Assembly: GCA_963705485.1 (NCBI GenBank)
Contig: CAVPJT010000004.1
Location: 16,200-80,199, forward strand
DNA from: Ilumatobacteraceae bacterium
GTDB taxonomy: Bacteria; Actinomycetota; Acidimicrobiia; Acidimicrobiales; Ilumatobacteraceae
Direction: 5' to 3'
DNA length: 64,000 nt
Positions 4,338 through 57,203 of this stretch are shown here, one piece after another; positions within the stretch are counted from its first letter, which is position 1; each line of letters begins with the position of its first letter. The notes beneath the pieces are model-generated. The model did no database searches. It saw only the letters and a program-made list of their open reading frames with translations, and had not been told where the DNA came from. A program made the translations under genes and the position numbers.

Positions 4338-5191
4338 TCAGGTAGTGGTCGACGTCGTAGGACTGTCGTCGCCGGTCAGGTAGCGCCAGAGCTTCGAGCG
4401 TTGGACCTGCTCGTTGCGGTAGTCGGTGATGCTCATCCACGGCTGCATCGTCCGCAGGATCTGCGCCACGCTGTCGGGGAGCATCCGAGCGAAGACGTGA
4501 TCCGACGGTGGGTTCTGCAGTTCCGGCGAGGTCGTCGGTGTTCCAGAGGCGAACCTGCGGCACGGTCGGGTTGAGCCGCACCTTGTGCATCCAGCGGTCG
4601 CCGTCGCCAGGGTTCGGTTGGCCGGCGTGCCACAGCCCGTGGTGGAACACGACCACCGTGCCGGCGGGACCCGAGAACTGTTGCTCGCCGACGATGTGCT
4701 GGTACCGATCGAGGCCGGACGACCGGACTCGACGCAGGTGGCTGCCCGGCACGAATCTCGTGCCGCCCTCACCTGGTGCCACGTCGTGCGGATACCAGAA
4801 CAGCTGGACGTCGAAAGTCGGTGTCGGGCGAGTCGGTGATCGCGTCCACGTGCAGCGGCTGGGTGTAGGTGGAATGCGGCTGCAGGTGGTGGGTGAAGTC
4901 GTGGTCGAAGGTCGGGCTGGCGCCGACGAACGACTCGATGATCCCCGGCATCTGCGGCAGGCGCAGGTAGTCGCCGATCGCCGACGGCGGCGGGTAGCAC
5001 TCGTCGAGCGGTGTCCCGGTGTGCGGGCGGCTTGAGTCCGTCGGGTCCGAAACGCTCGAGTTCGAGGCGACGCATCTCGTCGATGCCACGTTCGTTGATC
5101 TCGGCGGCACGACTGCCTCGAAGCGGATGAACCCGTTGGCGACGAACTCGGCCATCTGCCGTGTCGTCAACCGGTGATCGGTACTCCCCAT
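4338..5191 (-). pseudogene. phytanoyl-CoA dioxygenase (PhyH) family protein, at least 4 frame switches
   Basis: The reading path runs across three frames. It reads MGSTDHRLTTRQMAEFVANGFIRFEAVVP / AEINERGIDEMRRLELERFGPDGLKPPAH / TGTPLDECYPPPSAIGDYLRLPQMPGIIESFVG..HVDAITDSP / GGTRFVPGSHLRRV..GTVVVFHHGLWHAGQPNPGDGDRWMHKVR / PPSDHVFARMLPDSVAQILRTMQPWMSITDYRNEQVQRSKLWRYLTG. Confidence 0.75.
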
Positions 5192-5253
5192 CGCCAGAGT
5201 GTGGCATGTGTGTCAACTGGGGTCAGACCCCAGTTGACACGCCGACGCGCAAC

Positions 5254-5580: not shown

Positions 5581-5669
5581 GCGGCCACCTCGCCGGATGC
5601 GGTGGTTGGCGGTGTGGGGGTGGTGCTGATGCGGATGGTGGTCATCGACGAAGATCCTTTCGGTGACGG

Positions 5670-12744: not shown

Positions 12745-12783
12745 GTTGCGAGTTGCGGCGTGGGCGACCGGCACACTGAGGGA

Positions 12784-13710
12784 ATGGCTCGTCGCAGCAT
12801 CCTGATCGACACCGACACCGCGTCCGACGACGCGATCGCACTCGTGCTTGCGATTCGTGACCCGACGGTCGACGTTCGCGCCGTGACGGTGGTCGCCGGC
12901 AATGTGCCGCTCGACCTGGCCGTGAGGAACGCGATCGTCACCCTCGACCTCGCCGGCGGCGCCGACATTGCGCTGCACGCCGGGCGAGACCGCCCGCTCA
13001 CCCGATCGCTCGACACCGCCCAGTTCGTGCACGGCCAGGACGGTATGGGCGGTGCACCGTTGCCGGAACCATCGCGGGCAGCGACCTCCGCCGACGCCGT
13101 CGGAGTCCTCCTCGACATCGCTGCGAACGAACCCGGCCAACACGACCTGGTCACGCTCGGCCCACTCACCAACATCGCGGCTGCGCTCGAACACGACCCC
13201 GACCTGCTCACGAAGTTCGGCCACACCTACCTGATGGCCGGCTCGCCGGACGGTGTCGGCAACGTCGACGCCCTCGGCGAGTACAACGTGTGGGCCGACC
13301 CGGAAGCGGCGACAGCAGTGTTCGCCGCGCCGGGCGCGAAGACGATGATCGGCTGGAACATCTCGCGGAAGTTCGCCGTGATGACCGACGAGGAACAGTC
13401 GGCGTTGGCCGCCGTCGGCCCGCTGGGCAAGTTCGCAATCGACATCAACGGCGACGTCGAGCAGTACTGCCTCGACACCGGTCTCGCCGGGTTCGATCTC
13501 CCCGACCCCATCGCCATGGCCGTGGCCCTGGACGACTCGATCATCACCGAGGCCACCGACGAGTGGCTCGTGGTCGGCCTCGACGGCCCCACCCGCGGCT
13601 GCACGATCCCCGACCGCCGCTTCGGCCGGTCCGATCCGAACATCCGCGTACCGTGGTCGGTCGACGAAGCCGCCTTCAAACAACGACTGCTCGTCGCGTG
13701 CGCCGAGTGA
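12784..13710 (+). CDS. nucleoside hydrolase (IU-NH family)
   Basis: SILIDTDTASDDAIALVLA (DxDxxxDD motif), VTVVAGNVPL and the C-terminal WADPEAA. Confidence 0.85.
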   Translation: MARRSILIDTDTASDDAIALVLAIRDPTVDVRAVTVVAGNVPLDLAVRNAIVTLDLAGGADIALHAGRDRPLTRSLDTAQFVHGQDGMGGAPLPEPSRAATSADAVGVLLDIAANEPGQHDLVTLGPLTNIAAALEHDPDLLTKFGHTYLMAGSPDGVGNVDALGEYNVWADPEAATAVFAAPGAKTMIGWNISRKFAVMTDEEQSALAAVGPLGKFAIDINGDVEQYCLDTGLAGFDLPDPIAMAVALDDSIITEATDEWLVVGLDGPTRGCTIPDRRFGRSDPNIRVPWSVDEAAFKQRLLVACAE

Positions 13711-13732: not shown

Positions 13733-13788
13733 CACGTTTGCGTGAGGTTTTCGGTGACCCGTCCCACCCGAAGTGCAACGCAAACATG
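13733..13788 (+). repeat. hairpin repeat family HR-A, copy 1
   Basis: CACGTTTGCGTGAGGTTTTCGGT-GACCCGTCCCA-CCCGAAGTGCAACGCAAACATG. The outer GTTTGCGT/ACGCAAAC and inner TTCGGTG/CACCCGAA segments pair. Confidence 0.8.
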
Positions 13789-13807
13789 ATTGGTGCCGGG
13801 CTCAAGG

Positions 13808-13862
13808 CGTTTGTGCGCAAGTTTCGGTGACCCGTCCCACCTGTAGTGCAACGCAAACGTGG
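13808..13862 (+). repeat. hairpin repeat family HR-A, copy 2 (tandem with copy 1)
   Basis: GCGTTTGTGCGCAAGTTTCGGT-GACCCGTCCCA-CCTGTAGTGCAACGCAAACGTGG. Confidence 0.75.
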
Positions 13863-13873
13863 TTGGCGCGGTG

Positions 13874-14497
13874 TCAGCGGGGGAGGGGGCGGTCGCCGGA
13901 CAGCGGGCCCTCGGAGCGGGTGCGCTTGAGTTCGAAGAACGAGTCGATGTCCATCATCGTCACGAGCGCATCCCACATCGCCACGCTCTTCTCGGTGGAC
14001 GGGATCCGCGAGATGATCGGGCCGAAGTAGCCGGCTTTCACACCGTCGGAGTTGTCGAACGCGATGATCGGGGTGCCGACGTCGTTGCCGACCAGTTCCA
14101 AGCCCTCGTCCATACCCTCGCGGATCACGGCATCCCATGACTCCTCGTCGAAGGCCGCTGCGTGCGAGGTGTCGAGCCCGACGGTCGCCAACGCATCGGC
14201 GGGGTCGAATGGGGTCTCTTTGTCGTGGTGGATGCGTGCGCCGAACTCCCAGTACAGCTTGAACACGCCGTCGTTGCCATCGGTGGTGCGCACCGACTCC
14301 ATCACGCGCAGCAGCCCGTGAGTGAACTTCGATCCCTCGTACCAGGGCGTGTCCGGGTCGGGCTCATTCTTGAAGAACAAGCTGATCGGGCGCCACGTGA
14401 TGTCGATGTCGCGGTGCGGCTGCACCTCGTCGACGGCCCAGCGGGCGGTGGCCCAGCAGAACGGGCAGCCAGGGTCGACCCAGAAGTCGATGTTCAT
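13874..14497 (-). CDS. DsbA-fold thiol oxidoreductase, Rv2466c (mycoredoxin-2)-like
   Basis: MNIDFWVDPGCPFCWATARWAVDEV...GTPIIAFDNS..FFELKRTRSEGP is collinear with M. tuberculosis Rv2466c as I recall it (DFWFDPLCPWCW...FFELKRTRTEPP). Confidence 0.8.
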   Translation of the reverse strand: MNIDFWVDPGCPFCWATARWAVDEVQPHRDIDITWRPISLFFKNEPDPDTPWYEGSKFTHGLLRVMESVRTTDGNDGVFKLYWEFGARIHHDKETPFDPADALATVGLDTSHAAAFDEESWDAVIREGMDEGLELVGNDVGTPIIAFDNSDGVKAGYFGPIISRIPSTEKSVAMWDALVTMMDIDSFFELKRTRSEGPLSGDRPLPR

Positions 14498-21367: not shown

Positions 21368-21836
21368 TCAGCCGACGCTGGATTCGGCGGCGGCGGCGAG
21401 GTTCGCAAGCGTGTGTTCGATGCCCGCTCTCGTGTGCGGTTTCCGATCCTTCACTCCGGAGATGAAACCCGAGATCGGCAACCCCCATCGCCAGCGGTGC
21501 GTCGGTCCACGACTCGGTGACTCGGCAGCCCGTGTCCGTCGGCTCGATGTCGTAGGACCACTCGGCGCTCGGCGCGCCCATCGACGACGTGCGGAACGAC
21601 AGTCGCCGGCCGGGTTCGACATCGACCAGTGTCACGAGCATCTTCCATGTCTTGGAGCCGTTGCGATTGGTCCCCCGGAACGTCACGCCCGGAGCAGGAC
21701 CGGTCGCGCCGTTCAGCCACTCACCGCCCTCGTTCTCCGGCGACCACTCACCCATGCGAGGCAGGTCGGCGATCATCGCCCAGACCTCCTCGGCGGGTGC
21801 GGCGACCTCGCGCGTGACCGACACGTCAGCTTCCAT
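21368..21836 (-). pseudogene. SRPBCC (polyketide cyclase/START-like) family protein, 1 frame switch (~21500)
   Basis: MEADVSVTREVAAPAEEVWAMIADLPRMGEWSPEN..CRVTESWTD / HRWRWGLPISGFISGVKDRKPHTRAGIEHTLANLAAAAES*. Confidence 0.75.
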
Positions 21837-53847: not shown

Positions 53848-54885
53848 CTAGCGGCGCGTCTCCGAACGGGCCGGCTCGGGCAGGTCGACGCGTTCGTCGT
53901 CGTCGGGGATCGGCAATCCGTCCTTGGGACGAACCTCGTCGTCGGTGTCGTCGTCACCGCTCGCAGCCGCAAGTGCCGCCACGGTGCCCAACAGGCCGGA
54001 GAATTCGGCCGGGATCACGAGTTTGGTGGCACGCCCGTCGCCGATGCGTTCGAGGGCCTGCAGGTACTCGACGGTCAGCACGCTCTTGTCGGCCTTGGCC
54101 TCCTTGATTCCGGTGAGGCGGGCACGCGCGGCGTTGCCTTCGCCCTGACCGATCAGTTCCAGCTGGAGCTTCTCGGCGCTGGCGCGCAGTTCGATCGCCT
54201 GGGCTTGGCCCTCGGCATCGAGGACGGCGGCCTGCTTGCGACCCTGTGCCGAGAGGACGGCTGCCTGCTGCTCGCCGTCGGCACGTGCGATCGCTGCCTC
54301 CTGATAGCCCTTTGCCTCGGTGACGGTGGCACGACGGTCGCGCTCGGCACGCATCTGGGCGTGCATGGCGGACACGATGTCCGGCGGCGGATCGATCCGC
54401 TGGATCTCGACTCGCACCACCCGCACACCCCACTTGTCGGTGGCGTCGTCGAGCACGTCACGCAGTTGGGTGTTGATCGTGTCGCGGGAGGTGAGCGCAC
54501 GGTCGAGTTCGAGATCGCCGATCAGGTTGCGGAGGTTGGTCTGGGCGAGCTTGGTGAGCGCCATGAAGAAGTCGGCGACGTTGTACACGAGGCGCTGCGG
54601 GTCGGTGGCCTCGTAGTACACGACGGCGTCGACCGACACCACCACGTTGTCGGCGGTGATGACCTCCTGCGGCGGCACGTCGACCACTTGCTCACGCATG
54701 TCGATCAGCTGCATCGTCTCGATGAACGGCAGGATCAGGTTGAGACCTGGGTCACGCGTGGTCTTGTATTTGCCGAGACGTTCGACGAGTCCCCGCTGAT
54801 ACGGGCGCACGATCTTGACAGCGCTGACGAGCACGCCGATGCCGATGAGTGCGACGACGATCAGGACGATGGCAATGGGATTCAC
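53848..54885 (-). CDS. SPFH/band-7 (stomatin/HflK-C-like) protein
   Basis: An N-terminal TM helix, then VKIVRPYQRGLVERLGKY..PGLNLILPFIETM..VITADNVVVSVDAVVYY..VRVVRVEIQRIDPP. A GTG start lies 5 nt after GGGAG. Confidence 0.85.
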   Translation of the reverse strand: MNPIAIVLIVVALIGIGVLVSAVKIVRPYQRGLVERLGKYKTTRDPGLNLILPFIETMQLIDMREQVVDVPPQEVITADNVVVSVDAVVYYEATDPQRLVYNVADFFMALTKLAQTNLRNLIGDLELDRALTSRDTINTQLRDVLDDATDKWGVRVVRVEIQRIDPPPDIVSAMHAQMRAERDRRATVTEAKGYQEAAIARADGEQQAAVLSAQGRKQAAVLDAEGQAQAIELRASAEKLQLELIGQGEGNAARARLTGIKEAKADKSVLTVEYLQALERIGDGRATKLVIPAEFSGLLGTVAALAAASGDDDTDDEVRPKDGLPIPDDDERVDLPEPARSETRR

Positions 54886-54910
54886 GGAAGCTCCCGGCTT
54901 GGTGGTCGGA

Positions 54911-55478
54911 CTAGGTGGGTGGCGCTGGTGGGGATGATGAACTGGGCGGTGGGGCCGGCGGCGGCGCACCGGGTGGGGCGACTGGTGGGGTGGTCGGCGG
55001 CACGACGTCGGTCGACTGGACGATGACCTTGGTGCCGCTGACGGCGACGATGCGGACGTGGGTGCCTTGCGGGAGTGGCTGACCGTTCTCGGAAGTGGCG
55101 CCCCATATCTCGCCGTGGGCGGTGACGCGACCGCGGCGGTCGGTGTCGTCGGGGTCGATGGCCGAGGTGACGATGCCGGTGAGGCCGATCAGGCGATCGG
55201 CGCCGACACCGGGTTGGAGTTCGTTCTGGCCGGCGAATCGTCTTCGCGTATCGGTAGAGCAGGATCCAGATCACGGCACCGCCGCCGAGGAACATGAGCC
55301 ATTGGATCTCGATGGCGACGTCGTAGAAGCCGAGCAACGCGGCGCCGAGAGCCGACACGGCGAAGGGGAGCAGCACGAACGAACCGGCGAGCACGGTGAG
55401 TTCGATCAGGGCGAAGAACACGGCGATGCCGAGCCACACCCATGGCCAGAGGTTCAGGTCGATCCCGAGATCCAGCAC
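54911..55478 (-). pseudogene. NfeD family protein, 1 frame switch (~55240)
   Basis: The TM N-terminus is MLDLGIDLNLWPWVWLGIAVFFALIELTV..ILLYRYAKT. After the switch the OB-fold C-terminus reads FAGQNELQPGVGADRLIGLTGIVTSAIDPDD..GRVTAHGEIWGATSENGQPLPQGTHVRIVAVSGTKVIVQ. Confidence 0.75.
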
Positions 55479-55496
55479 CCTTCCAACCTATCCCAC

Positions 55497-55552
55497 CCCG
55501 TTTGTGTTGCACTTCGGGCGACCCGTCCCATCGAAATCGTCACGCAAACGTG
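55497..55552. repeat. hairpin repeat family HR-A, copy 3
   Basis: CCCCGTTTGTGTTGCACTTCGGGC-GACCCGTCCCA-TCGAAATCGTCACGCAAACGTG. The arms match copy 1 best when reverse-complemented. The loop is identical to copy 1 in the direct orientation. Confidence 0.8.
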
Positions 55553-55557
55553 ATTCG

Positions 55558-55613
55558 ACCGTTTGTGTTGCACTTCGGGTGGGCCGTCTCACCGAAACCG
55601 TCACGCAAACGTG
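55558..55613. repeat. hairpin repeat family HR-A, copy 4 (tandem with copy 3)
   Basis: ACCGTTTGTGTTGCACTTCGGGT-GGGCCGTCTCA-CCGAAACCGTCACGCAAACGTGG. Confidence 0.8.
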
Positions 55614-55620
55614 GTTGGGG

Positions 55621-57203
55621 TCAGTCGAGGTCGGCGGTGGAGGTGGTGGCGGGCCGGATGCGCAGGGGTTGGTCGGAGGCGGTCTTGTTGCGACCGGTCT
55701 CGAGGTCGAACCGCCAACCGTGGAGGGTGCACACGAAGTCACAGCCGTCGATCTCACCGAACGCAGCGAGGTCGGCGTTGCGATGCGGACACCGACGCTG
55801 CACCAGGTAGTCGCCGATGCGGATGTCGTCCTCGTCGAGGTGTTCGAGCACGTCGACCGGCGTGAGTTTGCGGATGACTTCGGCCTCGGCACGGCGCATG
55901 CGCTCGCGCGACAGCGACTTCAAGAAGTTGTAGACGTACTCGTTGAACTCGCCCTCGCGCCACGCCGTGAAGCGGCACGACAGCAGCAGCGAGTTGCTCC
56001 AGTCGACGGCTCGCTGCGGCGACGACGGTCTCGACGAGCTCACGCGGGATGTCGAATCGGAACGAGAAGGGCTCGTCGGCGTGGCGGCGGACCTCGCCAG
56101 CAGCAAAGTCGACGAGGATCGGCAGGTCGCCCGCATTGATCAGGACATTGCCACCCACCTGGGAACGCAACGTCGGCGCCATGTCGAGCAGCGGCTCCCA
56201 CCAGCCGCGAAGCGTGGCGAGCAGGTCGGTGCTCGGGGGATTCCACGATGCTTTCAGGTCGTCGAGCCACGGCATCCAGTCGGCTTGGTACGTCTCGAGG
56301 TACGTACGCTTGTCGGCGAAGATCGCGTCGACGTCGGCGACCGGCATCGGGTGGGTCACCTCGATCGAGTCGGGTCCGATGTCGATCGTCGTGCCGGGGA
56401 TGTTCATCACCCCGCTGCCGACCGGCGTCGGCGAGGCGTCGGAGGAACTGGGTCTGGTCGGGGAAGATGCTCAGCTCGTCACCGTCGATCATGTTGAGCG
56501 CGAACAGGTCCGGATCGAGGAACGCAGGTGGACCGGCACTCGGCACGACGTAGCGCGCATCGATGTTCTCCACGTACCGCATCGCTCGGGCGAACTGGGC
56601 GCCGACCTTCGCCTCACAGAGTTGGCGCTTGTCGCTGTCGGGCATGTCGTACACCATCGGGTACCAGATCGCCCCCGAGAACTGCAGCCAGTGCAGATCA
56701 ACCGGGCCGTGGGCACGCAGCTGGGCGAGGTCGTTGGTGCGGCAGTCGTTCTGGTTGACGAGGATCGACGTGCCATCGGAGACGACCAGCGCCGAGTCGC
56801 CGCCGGGGCCATCGGTGATCGAGGTCTCGACGTGGATCGCCACGGTGAGACCGGGAGCGATCTCCATCTCCTCGGTGTCGACCGTGCGGACGAACTCGGT
56901 GAAGCCGAGCGCTTGGAGGGTTCGCTGCTGCTCGCGGGTCGGGAATCCGGGCAAGAGGATCGGGATGTCGCGGCGCAGGTGTTCGCGCAACCAGGGCTCG
57001 TCGTGGTGGTCGCCGTGGAGGTGCGAGATGTAGAGGAAGTCGGCGTTTTCGATGCGCCCGCGGAGGTCGTCGGTCAACTGGTCGTTGCGGGGGAAGACGA
57101 ACCATGACCCGAAGAATGCGGGCACGAACCAGGGGTCGCACACGATCGATCCCGCATCGGTTTCGATGAGCATGCCGGCGTGGCCGATGGAGGTGGCGCG
57201 CAT
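55621..57203 (-). pseudogene. MBL-fold metallo-hydrolase fused to a C-terminal Rieske [2Fe-2S] domain, 2 frame switches (~56410 and ~56010)
   Basis: The N-terminus is IGHAGMLIETDAGSIVCDPW..LYISHLHGDHHD. The middle is MNIPGTTIDIGPDSIEVTHP..DWMPWLDDLKASW. The C-terminus is YLVQRRCPHRNADLAAFGEIDGCDFVCTLHGWRFDLETG. Confidence 0.75.

What the first reader, a model, noticed from the sequence alone, without database searches (positions are those of the whole stretch)
55497..55613. Second HR-A locus: stem arms are inverted relative to locus 1, but the loop keeps the same strand orientation
**Hand alignment of copy 3 with copy 1.**
- The arms match about 39/44 when copy 3 is reverse-complemented. Reverse-complemented copy 3 arms are CACGTTTGCGTGACGATTTCGAT...CCCGAAGTGCAACACAAACGG. 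Copy 1 arms are CACGTTTGCGTGAGGTTTTCGGT...CCCGAAGTGCAACGCAAACATG. In the direct orientation the arms match only about 24/41.
- The 11-nt loop GACCCGTCCCA is 11/11 identical in the direct orientation. It is about 3/10 identical when reverse-complemented.
- Copy 4 behaves the same way. Its loop GGGCCGTCTCA matches 8/11 direct versus 2/11 inverted.

**Two possible explanations.**
- The loop has flipped between the inverted arms, in a flip/flop manner by recombination or hairpin resolution.
- Selection acts on a plus-strand C-rich loop regardless of which arm comes first.

**A possible RNA parallel.** Two tandem hairpins with C-rich loops recall the actinobacterial 6C sRNA architecture. I cannot confirm homology.
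Basis: seen in the sequence. Interest (0 to 1): 0.6.

Follow-up and report, generated by a model that had tools for sequence, protein, structure and literature searches.

The report
Repeated intergenic hairpin with flippable tip
The two hairpins belong to a genus-specific family of about 58-base palindromic repeats that sit just after genes, and the tip of the hairpin occurs in either orientation relative to its stem in about equal numbers, most likely a footprint of replication template-switching and not a small RNA or a genetic switch.

Summary
Copies 3 and 4 (55497-55613) match copy 1 at 38/44 arm bases when reverse-complemented and 27/44 when direct. The copy 3 loop matches 11/12 direct and 5/12 inverted. 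The copy 4 loop is ambiguous on its own (9/12 both ways).

These are four of 62 copies in this 60%-complete Ilumatobacteraceae MAG. The family was found in 50 of 54 genomes of the genus and in no other genus sampled in the order.

Copies lie a median of 13 nt after stop codons, mostly between co-directional or convergent genes. They are often in tandem at about 73 nt spacing, and they lack U-tracts.

Among 121 copies with the standard asymmetric arms, the apical module is C-rich in 51 and G-rich in 47. Neither arm nor loop orientation tracks transcription.

In-situ flips are seen in one tandem pair and at a few shared loci, but the locus 2 configuration is the same in 9 of 10 other species and uninformative in the tenth.

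Best reading: a REP-like, RAYT-unlinked palindromic repeat whose apical hairpin is inverted now and then by template switching. The 6C sRNA idea and strand-specific loop selection are not supported.

The parts
55497..55552 (-). HR-A copy 3. Left arm 55497-55518, apical loop 55519-55530 (CGACCCGTCCCA on +), right arm 55531-55552. The standard arm polarity (GTGAC...TGCAAC) reads on the minus strand. The loop is C-rich on the plus strand.
   Evidence: nhmmer gives 61.0 bits on minus and 13.9 on plus.
55558..55613 (-). HR-A copy 4, a tandem neighbour with start-to-start spacing of 61 nt. Loop 55580-55591 (TGGGCCGTCTCA) is a degenerate C-type loop that matches copy 1 at 9/12 in both orientations.
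   Evidence: Loops at the same locus in other species.
13733..13788 (+). HR-A copy 1 (locus 1). Standard arm polarity on the plus strand. Loop 13755-13766 is TGACCCGTCCCA.
13806..13861 (+). HR-A copy 2 (locus 1), tandem at 73 nt spacing. Loop 13828-13839 is TGACCCGTCCCA.
55621..56136 (-). 3' end of an Rv3818-like gene (SCP2-like plus Rieske domains). Its stop codon lies about 5 nt from copy 4, so in transcript sense the array follows this gene.
54882..55478 (-). Downstream small membrane-protein ORF that precedes an apparent SPFH/band-7-type gene (not scanned against Pfam). Its GTG start is 19 nt from copy 3. A TAGGTT motif conserved across species lies in between and may be a -10 box for a leaderless transcript (inference).
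   Evidence: No Pfam hit.
12760..13710 (+). Nucleoside hydrolase gene. Its stop codon is 22 nt before copy 1. It converges on the next gene.
13874..14497 (-). Rv2466c-like/DsbA-like thioredoxin-fold gene. Its stop codon is about 12 nt after copy 2.

Best explanation
**What it is**
The two hairpins are members of a genus-specific dispersed family of about 58-nt quasi-palindromes.

**Anatomy: three nested layers**
- An invariant 9-bp outer stem, CGTTTGCGT/ACGCAAACG.
- An asymmetric internal loop that gives the arms their polarity. In this clade it is GTGAC opposite TGCAAC, with G.A and A.C mismatches.
- An apical hairpin, GGTG-NNNCGNNN-CACC, whose loop is not palindromic.

**How the discordance most likely arose (inferred)**
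- The apical module has been inverted repeatedly, independently of the outer frame. It spans roughly model positions 21-38.
- The likely cause is DNA-polymerase template switching, or recombination, between the two halves of the inner stem. This is the process known to invert spacers and to homogenise the arms of short imperfect inverted repeats.
- Locus 1 (frame on +, C-rich loop on +) and locus 2 (frame on -, C-rich loop on +) are simply the two states.
- Both states are old and stably inherited. This is not a working switch.

**Likely function (inferred, untested)**
- The elements sit directly after stop codons and work, if at all, in either orientation.
- The most plausible role is as 3'-end hairpins that stabilise mRNA or attenuate read-through, as proposed for REPs.

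**Shown versus inferred**
- Shown: family membership, the layered anatomy, the roughly 1:1 dimorphism, the lack of strand bias, the position after genes, and the genus restriction.
- Inferred: the template-switch mechanism and the 3'-end function.
For: **Family and distribution**
- 62 copies in this genome.
- Present in 50 of 54 genus genomes, with 1-114 strict-pattern hits each.
- Absent from 4 other genera of the family. About 195 further genomes of the order gave only two single hits, with unrelated interiors.

**Layered behaviour**
- Loop column pairs are tightly linked to one another.
- Pair 21/38 is partly linked to the loop (p from 2e-4 to 8e-3).
- Arm pairs 13/46, 14/45 and 16/43 are unlinked to the loop: 39:26, 28:30 and 17:25.
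- Overall, 51 A-type and 47 B-type loops sit on identically oriented arms.
- Exact reverse-complement loop pairs exist on the same arm polarity.
- There is no subfamily structure. The nearest non-tandem paralogue shares core orientation in 13.7 of 34 cases.

**In-situ flips**
- Tandem pair C14:55207/55285 shares the rare GCAACCCAAAC arm and the same flank, but has opposite cores.
- Shared loci a92/a117 and a19/a119.
- G009 at locus 1: its loop TGGGAGGGGCCA is the reverse complement, at 11/12, of TGGCCCGTCCCA in the other species.

**Other footprints expected from template switching**
- 25 copies have homogenised arms: 11 GTTGCA/TGCAAC and 14 with G13-C46 paired.
- One copy is a perfect 52-nt palindrome, C24:46758.

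**Published mechanism**
- Loop inversions of up to 7-8 nt attributed to template switching, including bacterial examples (PMC8794818).
- IR spacer inversion and arm homogenisation by template switching (PMC8604942).

**REP-like placement**
- Non-redundant contexts: 38 co-directional, 31 convergent, 6 divergent (convergent versus divergent p = 4e-5).
- Di Nocera et al. describe the same placement for REPs (PMC3733652).
Against: - No read-level or experimental evidence exists for any mechanism.
- Flips at shared loci are rare. Locus 2 shows none across 10 other species. My rough estimate from that rate predicts clearly fewer than 50% flipped copies within the age of the genus, yet the ratio is about 1:1. 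It also looks mixed in G013, by a hand tally of about ten listed copies, although G013 has different stems.
- The presence/absence polymorphism at locus 1 (0, 1, 2 or 5 copies) means some 'flips' at a shared locus could be independent insertions.
- Stems are species-specific while termini and loop are conserved. This implies turnover or concerted evolution by an unidentified process.
- No mobilising enzyme was found.
- The elements have no U-tract (TTTT in 1 of 133 downstream flanks), so they are not canonical intrinsic terminators.
Confidence: 0.6

Rival explanations
1. Two old sublineages. A single inversion of the apical hairpin happened once in a master copy. Both forms then amplified in parallel, so the 1:1 ratio reflects two founders and not recurrent flipping.
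For: - Core orientation is stable at most shared loci. Locus 2 is consistent in 9 of 10 other species, and about 14 of 18 groups are clearly consistent.
- Tandem neighbours share the loop sign in 31 of 33 cases.
- Weak associations exist between loop type and arm columns 14-16 (p from 0.003 to 0.05).
Against: - No arm position is diagnostic for loop type.
- The most similar frames have random core orientation: 8 same and 7 opposite at 2-3 differences.
- A tandem duplicate pair with a shared rare arm variant has opposite cores.
- G013 has different stems yet appears to show both orientations, by a hand tally of about ten listed copies.
Confidence: 0.15
2. Copy-associated flip/flop. Each time a new copy is made, or a hairpin or cruciform is nicked and refilled, an enzyme resolves the apical hairpin so that both orientations arise equally. 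This is the way parvovirus and poxvirus terminal hairpins come as flip and flop forms.
For: - The ratio is about 1:1 in this genome and looks mixed in a lineage with replaced stems.
- Termini and loop are conserved while stems are species-specific, and occupancy at locus 1 varies. This suggests ongoing turnover.
- HUH-type Y1 transposase genes are present in 29 of 30 other genus genomes searched.
Against: - None of the 16 Y1_Tnp neighbourhoods examined is flanked by HR-A. This includes every Y1_Tnp match found in the near-complete genomes G010 and G023. These genes carry their own, different palindromes.
- G013 has 51 elements and no Y1_Tnp match. G024 has 3 Y1_Tnp matches and no elements.
- The boundary of the flipped segment is variable, since 21/38 is only partly linked to the loop. 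A fixed nick site would not give that.
- No empty frames or solo cores exist in the genome.
Confidence: 0.08
3. Programmed inversion switch. The apical segment flips within a population and changes expression of neighbouring genes.
For: The segment is flanked by inverted repeats and exists in two discrete states.
Against: - The invertible part is only about 18 nt. From background knowledge this is far below what known invertases handle.
- The state at locus 2 is fixed across 9 of 10 other species.
- Tandem neighbours almost always agree.
- Orientation is unrelated to gene direction.
- Heterogeneity within a population could not be tested.
Confidence: 0.04
4. Strand-specific functional RNA, either 6C-like or another sRNA. 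Its C-rich loops would be selected on one strand whichever arm comes first.
For: - Two tandem hairpins carry C-rich loops at both window loci.
- The loop sequence is conserved across species at locus 2.
Against: - No match to 6C or to any Rfam family.
- The loop is G-rich as often as C-rich on any reference: arms 51:47, contig strand 27:23, transcript sense 19 G to 11 C.
- At locus 2 the sense strand is minus, so a read-through RNA would carry the G-rich loop.
- Copies number 60-110 per genome and sit after stop codons.
Confidence: 0.03

Closest known systems
REP / BIME-type repetitive extragenic palindromes (E. coli, Pseudomonas; GTAG and CGTC superfamilies of Di Nocera et al. 2013, PMC3733652)
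   Same: - Short, GC-rich, imperfect palindromes in tens to hundreds of copies.
- Lineage-specific.
- Located downstream of ORFs, between co-directional and convergent genes, often clustered.
- Some REP families (the CGTC type) also lack a dedicated transposase.
   Different: - Longer (about 58 nt against 20-40) and three-layered.
- No unpaired GTAG or CGTC tag.
- Clusters are direct tandem copies, not alternating orientation.
- Not found next to any RAYT gene.
- The apical module occurs in both orientations within a fixed frame.
REPIN-RAYT systems (REP doublets forming hairpins, mobilised by a single-copy Y1/HUH transposase)
   Same: - A long imperfect hairpin with conserved arm sequences and a less constrained centre.
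- Populations of copies with species-specific master sequences.
- The genus does carry RAYT-like genes flanked by their own palindromes.
   Different: - HR-A does not flank any of the 16 Y1_Tnp genes inspected.
- Its presence across genomes does not follow Y1_Tnp.
- The palindromes that flank the RAYT-like genes are a different family (GTGTCAACTGGGGTC[A/T]GACCCCAGTTGACAC and relatives).
Template-switch (quasipalindrome) mutations: IR spacer inversion and arm homogenisation (PMC8794818, PMC8604942); small hairpin-loop inversions of chloroplast non-coding DNA (the chloroplast case is from my own background knowledge)
   Same: - Inversion of the loop plus a variable part of the stem of a short imperfect inverted repeat.
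- Copies with homogenised arms and perfect palindromes occur alongside.
   Different: Here the process is seen across a whole dispersed repeat family, at an apparent equilibrium of about 1:1, and not as isolated events in single-copy hairpins.
Flip/flop terminal hairpins of parvoviruses and poxviruses
   Same: Two forms related by reverse-complementing the interior of a hairpin while the outer stem is unchanged, present at about 1:1.
   Different: - Those are ends of linear genomes, and hairpin transfer inverts them at every replication round.
- HR-A copies are internal chromosomal sites.
- HR-A state is inherited stably across species.
6C sRNA of Actinobacteria (Rfam RF01066)
   Same: Two adjacent hairpins with C-rich loops in an actinobacterial genome.
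   Different: - No covariance-model match.
- Multi-copy.
- Loops are G-rich as often as C-rich.
- Not a discrete gene.

Membership tests
REP (repetitive extragenic palindrome), broad sense | Short imperfect palindrome repeated many times, confined to intergenic DNA | tested here: met
   62 copies in 2.68 Mb. Coding signal was detected on both flanks of 59 of 62 copies, usually within 0-90 nt.
REP (repetitive extragenic palindrome), broad sense | Preferential location downstream of ORFs, between co-directional or convergent genes | tested here: met
   38 co-directional, 31 convergent and 6 divergent among non-redundant arrays. Median 13 nt after the stop codon.
REP, GTAG or CGTC superfamily (Di Nocera 2013) | Unpaired GTAG or CGTC tag at one end of a 20-40 bp palindrome | tested here: not met
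   The element is about 58 nt. Its ends are CCA-CGTTTGCG...CGCAAACG-TGG, fully paired, with no GTAG or CGTC tag (column profile).
REP/REPIN-RAYT system | A RAYT (Y1_Tnp) gene flanked by copies of the same repeat | tested here: not met
   No HR-A copy flanks any of the 16 Y1_Tnp genes inspected in 10 genomes, within 1.5-5 kb each side. The only copies seen lie more than 3.4 kb from the gene in one locus. Three genes inspected closely are flanked by other palindromes. G000 itself has no Y1_Tnp match, but it is only 60% complete.
REP/REPIN-RAYT system | Co-occurrence of repeat family and RAYT across genomes | tested here: not met
   G013 has 51 elements and 0 Y1_Tnp matches. G024 has 0 elements and 3 Y1_Tnp matches. 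G044 has 0 elements and 1 Y1_Tnp match.
MITE | Terminal inverted repeats shared with an autonomous IS, and target-site duplications | tested here: inconclusive
   Solo terminal 8-mers occur no more often than composition predicts: 79 observed, and about 76 expected per motif per strand. No longer element with these ends was seen in the 60% genome. Filled and empty sites at locus 1 show no clear duplication.
6C sRNA (RF01066) | Match to the Rfam covariance model at or near the gathering score | tested here: not met
   No hit at E <= 10 at either locus. No hit in the whole genome.
Intrinsic (Rho-independent) terminator | GC-rich hairpin followed by a U-tract | tested here: not met
   TTTT occurs within 16 nt downstream in 1 of 133 flanks. 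The flanks are G/T-rich (TGGTTGGGG) instead.
Structured hairpin maintained by pairing | Compensatory changes that keep stem pairs | tested here: met
   In 27 copies from 4 species, 12 of 20 predicted pairs show double compensatory changes. Within the G000 clade, pair 23/36 gives 142 Watson-Crick pairs against 106 +/- 3 expected. Caveat: template switching can create such changes without selection.
Invertase-driven phase-variable inverton | Both orientations present within one population | not testable with these tools

The most novel reading that the evidence does not exclude
HR-A may be an actively turning-over mobile hairpin whose copying or repair regularly resolves the apical hairpin into both orientations. 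That would be a chromosomal analogue of viral flip/flop termini, driven by an enzyme not yet identified. It would account for three things together: the roughly 1:1 dimorphism, which also looks mixed in a species with replaced stems; the invariant termini and loop; and the 0-5 copy polymorphism at a shared intergenic site.
Probability: 0.1. Interest if true: 0.75.

Novelty: new member of a known kind. Interest (0 to 1): 0.36.

Why it matters
- It documents an undescribed, genus-restricted extragenic palindrome family in uncultured Acidimicrobiia (Ilumatobacteraceae). It has 60-110 copies per genome and is not linked to the RAYT transposases that the same genomes carry.
- The family is a convenient natural record of template-switch mutagenesis. 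One sequence family shows loop inversion, arm homogenisation and full palindromisation side by side. It could be used to estimate the rates of these events in bacteria.
- For annotation, it warns that tandem hairpins with C-rich loops in Actinobacteria are not necessarily 6C-like sRNAs.
- If the flip turns out to be coupled to copying, it would point to a new way of mobilising hairpin DNA.

Tried and rejected
- **Rfam.** Gathering thresholds on the whole window and E <= 10 on both loci gave only chance-level hits and one tRNA. RF01066 on the whole genome gave nothing.
- **RAYT link.** Y1_Tnp is common in the genus, but none of 16 gene neighbourhoods carries HR-A.
- **'REP inserted into a palindromic frame'.** No empty frames exist (all frames are 51-54 nt) and there are no solo cores.
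- **Autonomous element with the same termini.** Solo termini occur no more often than chance predicts.
- **Genes bracketed by two elements.** They are ordinary by reading their translations: lysA-like, a sterol-desaturase-like protein, an MFS transporter and an amidohydrolase-like protein. They were not scanned against Pfam.
- **Orientation against transcription.** The apparent 20:7 excess of G-rich loops in sense fell to 19:11 (p = 0.20) once copies at shared loci and tandem copies were collapsed.
- **Orientation against local GC skew.** Arms 11:12 and loops 16:8, not significant. The skew itself is weak.
- **Frame similarity as a clock for core flips.** Uninformative, because the frames are too constrained.
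- **RNA folding of the tandem pairs.** Energies are not unusual against shuffles (z from -0.8 to -1.6), and the pairs can fold as one long hairpin.
- **Plasmid database.** No match.
- **Literature.** No paper links Ilumatobacteraceae, or Actinobacteria RAYT/REPIN systems, to such repeats.

Full report
**1. The observation**

The stretch 55497-55613 holds two tandem quasi-palindromes.

- Copy 3 has arms at 55497-55518 and 55531-55552, and its loop at 55519-55530.
- Copy 4 has arms at 55558-55579 and 55592-55613, and its loop at 55580-55591.
- The repeat finder groups them with the pair at 13735-13869 both as a direct family (D3) and as long inverted matches (I1, I2, I4).

I made a gap-free comparison with copy 1, in register with the dyad.

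| Copy | Arms, reverse-complemented | Arms, direct | Loop, direct | Loop, reverse-complemented |
|---|---|---|---|---|
| Copy 3 | 38/44 | 27/44 | 11/12 | 5/12 |
| Copy 4 | 38/44 | 27/44 | 9/12 | 9/12 |

Copy 4 is ambiguous on its own. The reported '2/11 inverted' comes from comparing an 11-mer that is not centred on the dyad. Copies at the same locus in other species carry TGGCCCGTCCCA, so copy 4 is probably a C-type loop with two substitutions.

**2. What the elements are**

*Copy number and shape*
- A profile built from the four copies finds 62 copies in the 2.68-Mb, 37-contig genome. The genome is about 60% complete.
- The consensus is CCACGTTTGCGTGACGGTTCC-GGTG-NNNCGNNN-CACC-GGAACTGCAACGCAAACGTGG.
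- Thirteen loci are tandem pairs, mostly at 72-73 nt spacing.

*Taxonomic range*
- Record titles of exact-pattern matches place the family in MAGs labelled Ilumatobacteraceae.
- The outer-stem pattern CGTTTGYG-N34-40-CRCAAACG occurs in 50 of 54 genomes of the genus, with 1-114 hits each. Reversed-pattern controls gave 0.
- It was found in none of 4 other genera of the family. About 195 further genomes of the order gave only two single hits, with unrelated interiors.

*Position relative to genes*
- After collapsing copies at shared loci and tandem copies, 38 arrays lie between co-directional genes, 31 between convergent genes and 6 between divergent genes. Convergent against divergent gives p = 4e-5.
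- The median distance from the upstream stop codon is 13 nt.
- There is no U-tract. TTTT appears in 1 of 133 downstream flanks, which are G/T-rich instead.

*The two window loci*
- At locus 2 the array lies on the minus-strand transcription path. It follows the stop of an Rv3818-like SCP2/Rieske gene and precedes the start of a small membrane-protein ORF.
- Locus 1 lies between the convergent nucleoside hydrolase and Rv2466c-like genes.

**3. Anatomy**

I aligned 160 copies: 62 from this genome and 98 from loci fetched from related genomes. They show three layers.

- **Outer stem.** Positions 4-12 pair with 47-55. The sequence CGTTTGCGT/ACGCAAACG is almost invariant.
- **Asymmetric internal loop.** Positions 13-17 face 42-46. 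It carries G13.A46 in 121 of 160 copies, A14.C45 and G16.T43. This gives the arms a polarity. The flanking pair 3/56 follows that polarity (49 to 7).
- **Apical hairpin.** Positions 18-25 pair with 34-41, with a frequent C.C or G.G mismatch at 21/38. The 8-nt loop is not palindromic. Watson-Crick pairing at 27/32 is avoided: 19 observed against 52 expected.

Species-specific variants exist across the genus.
- G013 has GGCGCG/CGCGCC with GTTG/CAAC.
- G231 has GACAAGAA/TTCTTGTC with GGAG/CTCC.
- Termini and loop are kept in both.
- In 27 copies from four species, 12 of 20 predicted pairs show compensatory double changes.

**4. Arm orientation against loop orientation**

- Among the 121 copies with standard arm polarity, 51 have the C-rich loop (type A, TGACCCG[G/T/C][C/T]CCA). 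Another 47 have its reverse complement (type B, TGGG[A/G]CGGGTCA), and 23 are near-symmetric.
- In this genome alone the split is 18:18:6, using the first marker-based arm call.
- The three loop column pairs switch together (p from 7e-5 to 3e-13).
- Pair 21/38 follows the loop only partly (p from 2e-4 to 8e-3).
- Arm pairs 13, 14 and 16 do not follow the loop.
- The mobile unit is therefore the tip of the hairpin, with a variable boundary inside the inner stem.
- No arm column is diagnostic for loop type. The most similar frames have random core orientation.
- Tandem neighbours agree in arm strand in 31 of 32 cases and in loop sign in 31 of 33 cases. This fits an origin by local duplication.

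**5. Is orientation selected?**

- Arm polarity is random relative to transcription (15 to 12), and so is loop polarity (19 G to 11 C in sense, p = 0.20).
- An initial 20:7 signal came from counting tandem copies and copies at shared loci several times.
- Neither polarity follows local GC skew.
- This argues against selection on one strand and against a strand-specific RNA.
- Rfam gives nothing at either locus. The 6C model finds nothing in the whole genome.

**6. Do flips happen in place?**

*Locus 2 is stable.* Nine of ten other species have the same configuration, with arms on minus and a C-rich loop on plus. The tenth has a near-neutral loop.

*Four cases show a change.*
- Tandem pair C14:55207/55285 shares the rare GCAACCCAAAC arm and the same downstream flank, but has opposite cores.
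- Shared-locus pairs a92/a117 and a19/a119 need 2-3 substitutions as an inversion, against 5-6 as a direct comparison.
- At locus 1, G009 has the standard arms with a loop that is the reverse complement, at 11/12, of the loop in other species.

*Caveat.* Locus 1 varies between 0, 1, 2 and 5 copies among species, and the empty sites are only 4-14 nt long. Some differences at a shared locus could therefore be independent insertions.

*Other footprints.* The family also contains 25 copies with homogenised arms and one perfect 52-nt palindrome.

**7. Mechanism**

The pattern matches DNA-polymerase template switching at imperfect inverted repeats. Its features are:
- inversion of the loop together with a variable part of the stem;
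- homogenised arms;
- perfect palindromes.

Template switching is reported to invert spacers and to homogenise arms (PMC8604942). It is also reported to invert hairpin loops of up to 7-8 nt, including in bacteria (PMC8794818). I take this as the most likely cause.

One tension remains. The low flip rate at shared loci does not easily give a 1:1 ratio within the age of the genus. The ratio also looks mixed in G013, by a hand tally of about ten listed copies, although that species has different stems. Possible ways out are two founder forms, or a flip coupled to copying.

**8. Relation to REP/RAYT**

- The placement and copy number are REP-like (PMC3733652).
- The element is longer than REPs and lacks a GTAG or CGTC tag.
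- It is not found beside any of 16 Y1_Tnp genes inspected, including every Y1_Tnp match in the near-complete genomes G010 and G023.
- Three of those genes, inspected closely, are flanked by their own, different palindromes. One of these families is also dispersed in this genome and occurs in the window near 5210-5240.
- Element and Y1_Tnp presence do not track each other across genomes.

**9. Verdict**

- The 'flip' reading is partly supported, as an evolutionary event.
- The strand-selection and 6C readings are not supported.
- The thing itself is a new member of the broad class of extragenic palindromic repeats, with an unusually clear record of hairpin-tip inversion.

Noticed in passing
window 5210-5240 (G000:C4:~21409-21439): There is a perfect palindrome here, GTGTCAACTGGGGTCAGACCCCAGTTGACAC. 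It belongs to a second dispersed family: 7 copies of this exact type in G000, and 13 hits to the shared GGGGTC[A/T]GACCCC core. In the related genome G014 the same palindrome flanks a Y1_Tnp (RAYT-like) gene on both sides. This looks like a genuine REP-RAYT system in Acidimicrobiia.
   Followed up: partly
L060:1383-1429 and 2307-2351; L066:4090-4154 and 5057-5123; L068:4721-4752 and 5616-5648: Y1_Tnp genes of about 300 aa, with HUH and Tyr motifs, occur in 29 of 30 other genus genomes searched. The three inspected closely are each bracketed by their own palindrome type. Of the two single-base-centred types, the centre base is A on one side and T on the other.
   Followed up: partly
window 55621-57203, minus strand: The Rv3818-like gene (MBL-fold, SCP2-like and Rieske domains) upstream of locus 2 is spread over three overlapping reading frames: 56040-57203, 55754-56410 and 55621-56136. 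That suggests two frameshifts, meaning either a pseudogene or consensus errors in the MAG.
   Followed up: no
window 55479-55497, minus strand: Between copy 3 and the GTG start at 55478 lies TAGGTT-N6-GTG. The TAGGTTG motif is conserved at this locus in most species. It could be a -10 box for a leaderless transcript, which would put the -35 region inside the repeat.
   Followed up: no
locus 1 in other species (L076-L095): The convergent spacer between the nucleoside hydrolase gene and the Rv2466c-like gene holds 0, 1, 2 or 5 HR-A copies, depending on the species. Empty sites have only 4-14 nt between the two stop codons.
   Followed up: partly
G013, G231 and G008 (listing): Each of these species has its own stem sequence in nearly all listed copies, while the termini (CGTTTGYG) are kept. 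G013 and G231 also keep the loop (GACCCGG-like). This points to family-wide replacement or concerted evolution of a dispersed repeat.
   Followed up: partly
   Followed up: no
G000:C30:6473-6531 and G000:C5:4170-4228: These two HR-A copies are identical, and their flanks match in inverted orientation on different contigs. This is either a duplicated region or assembly redundancy.
   Followed up: no
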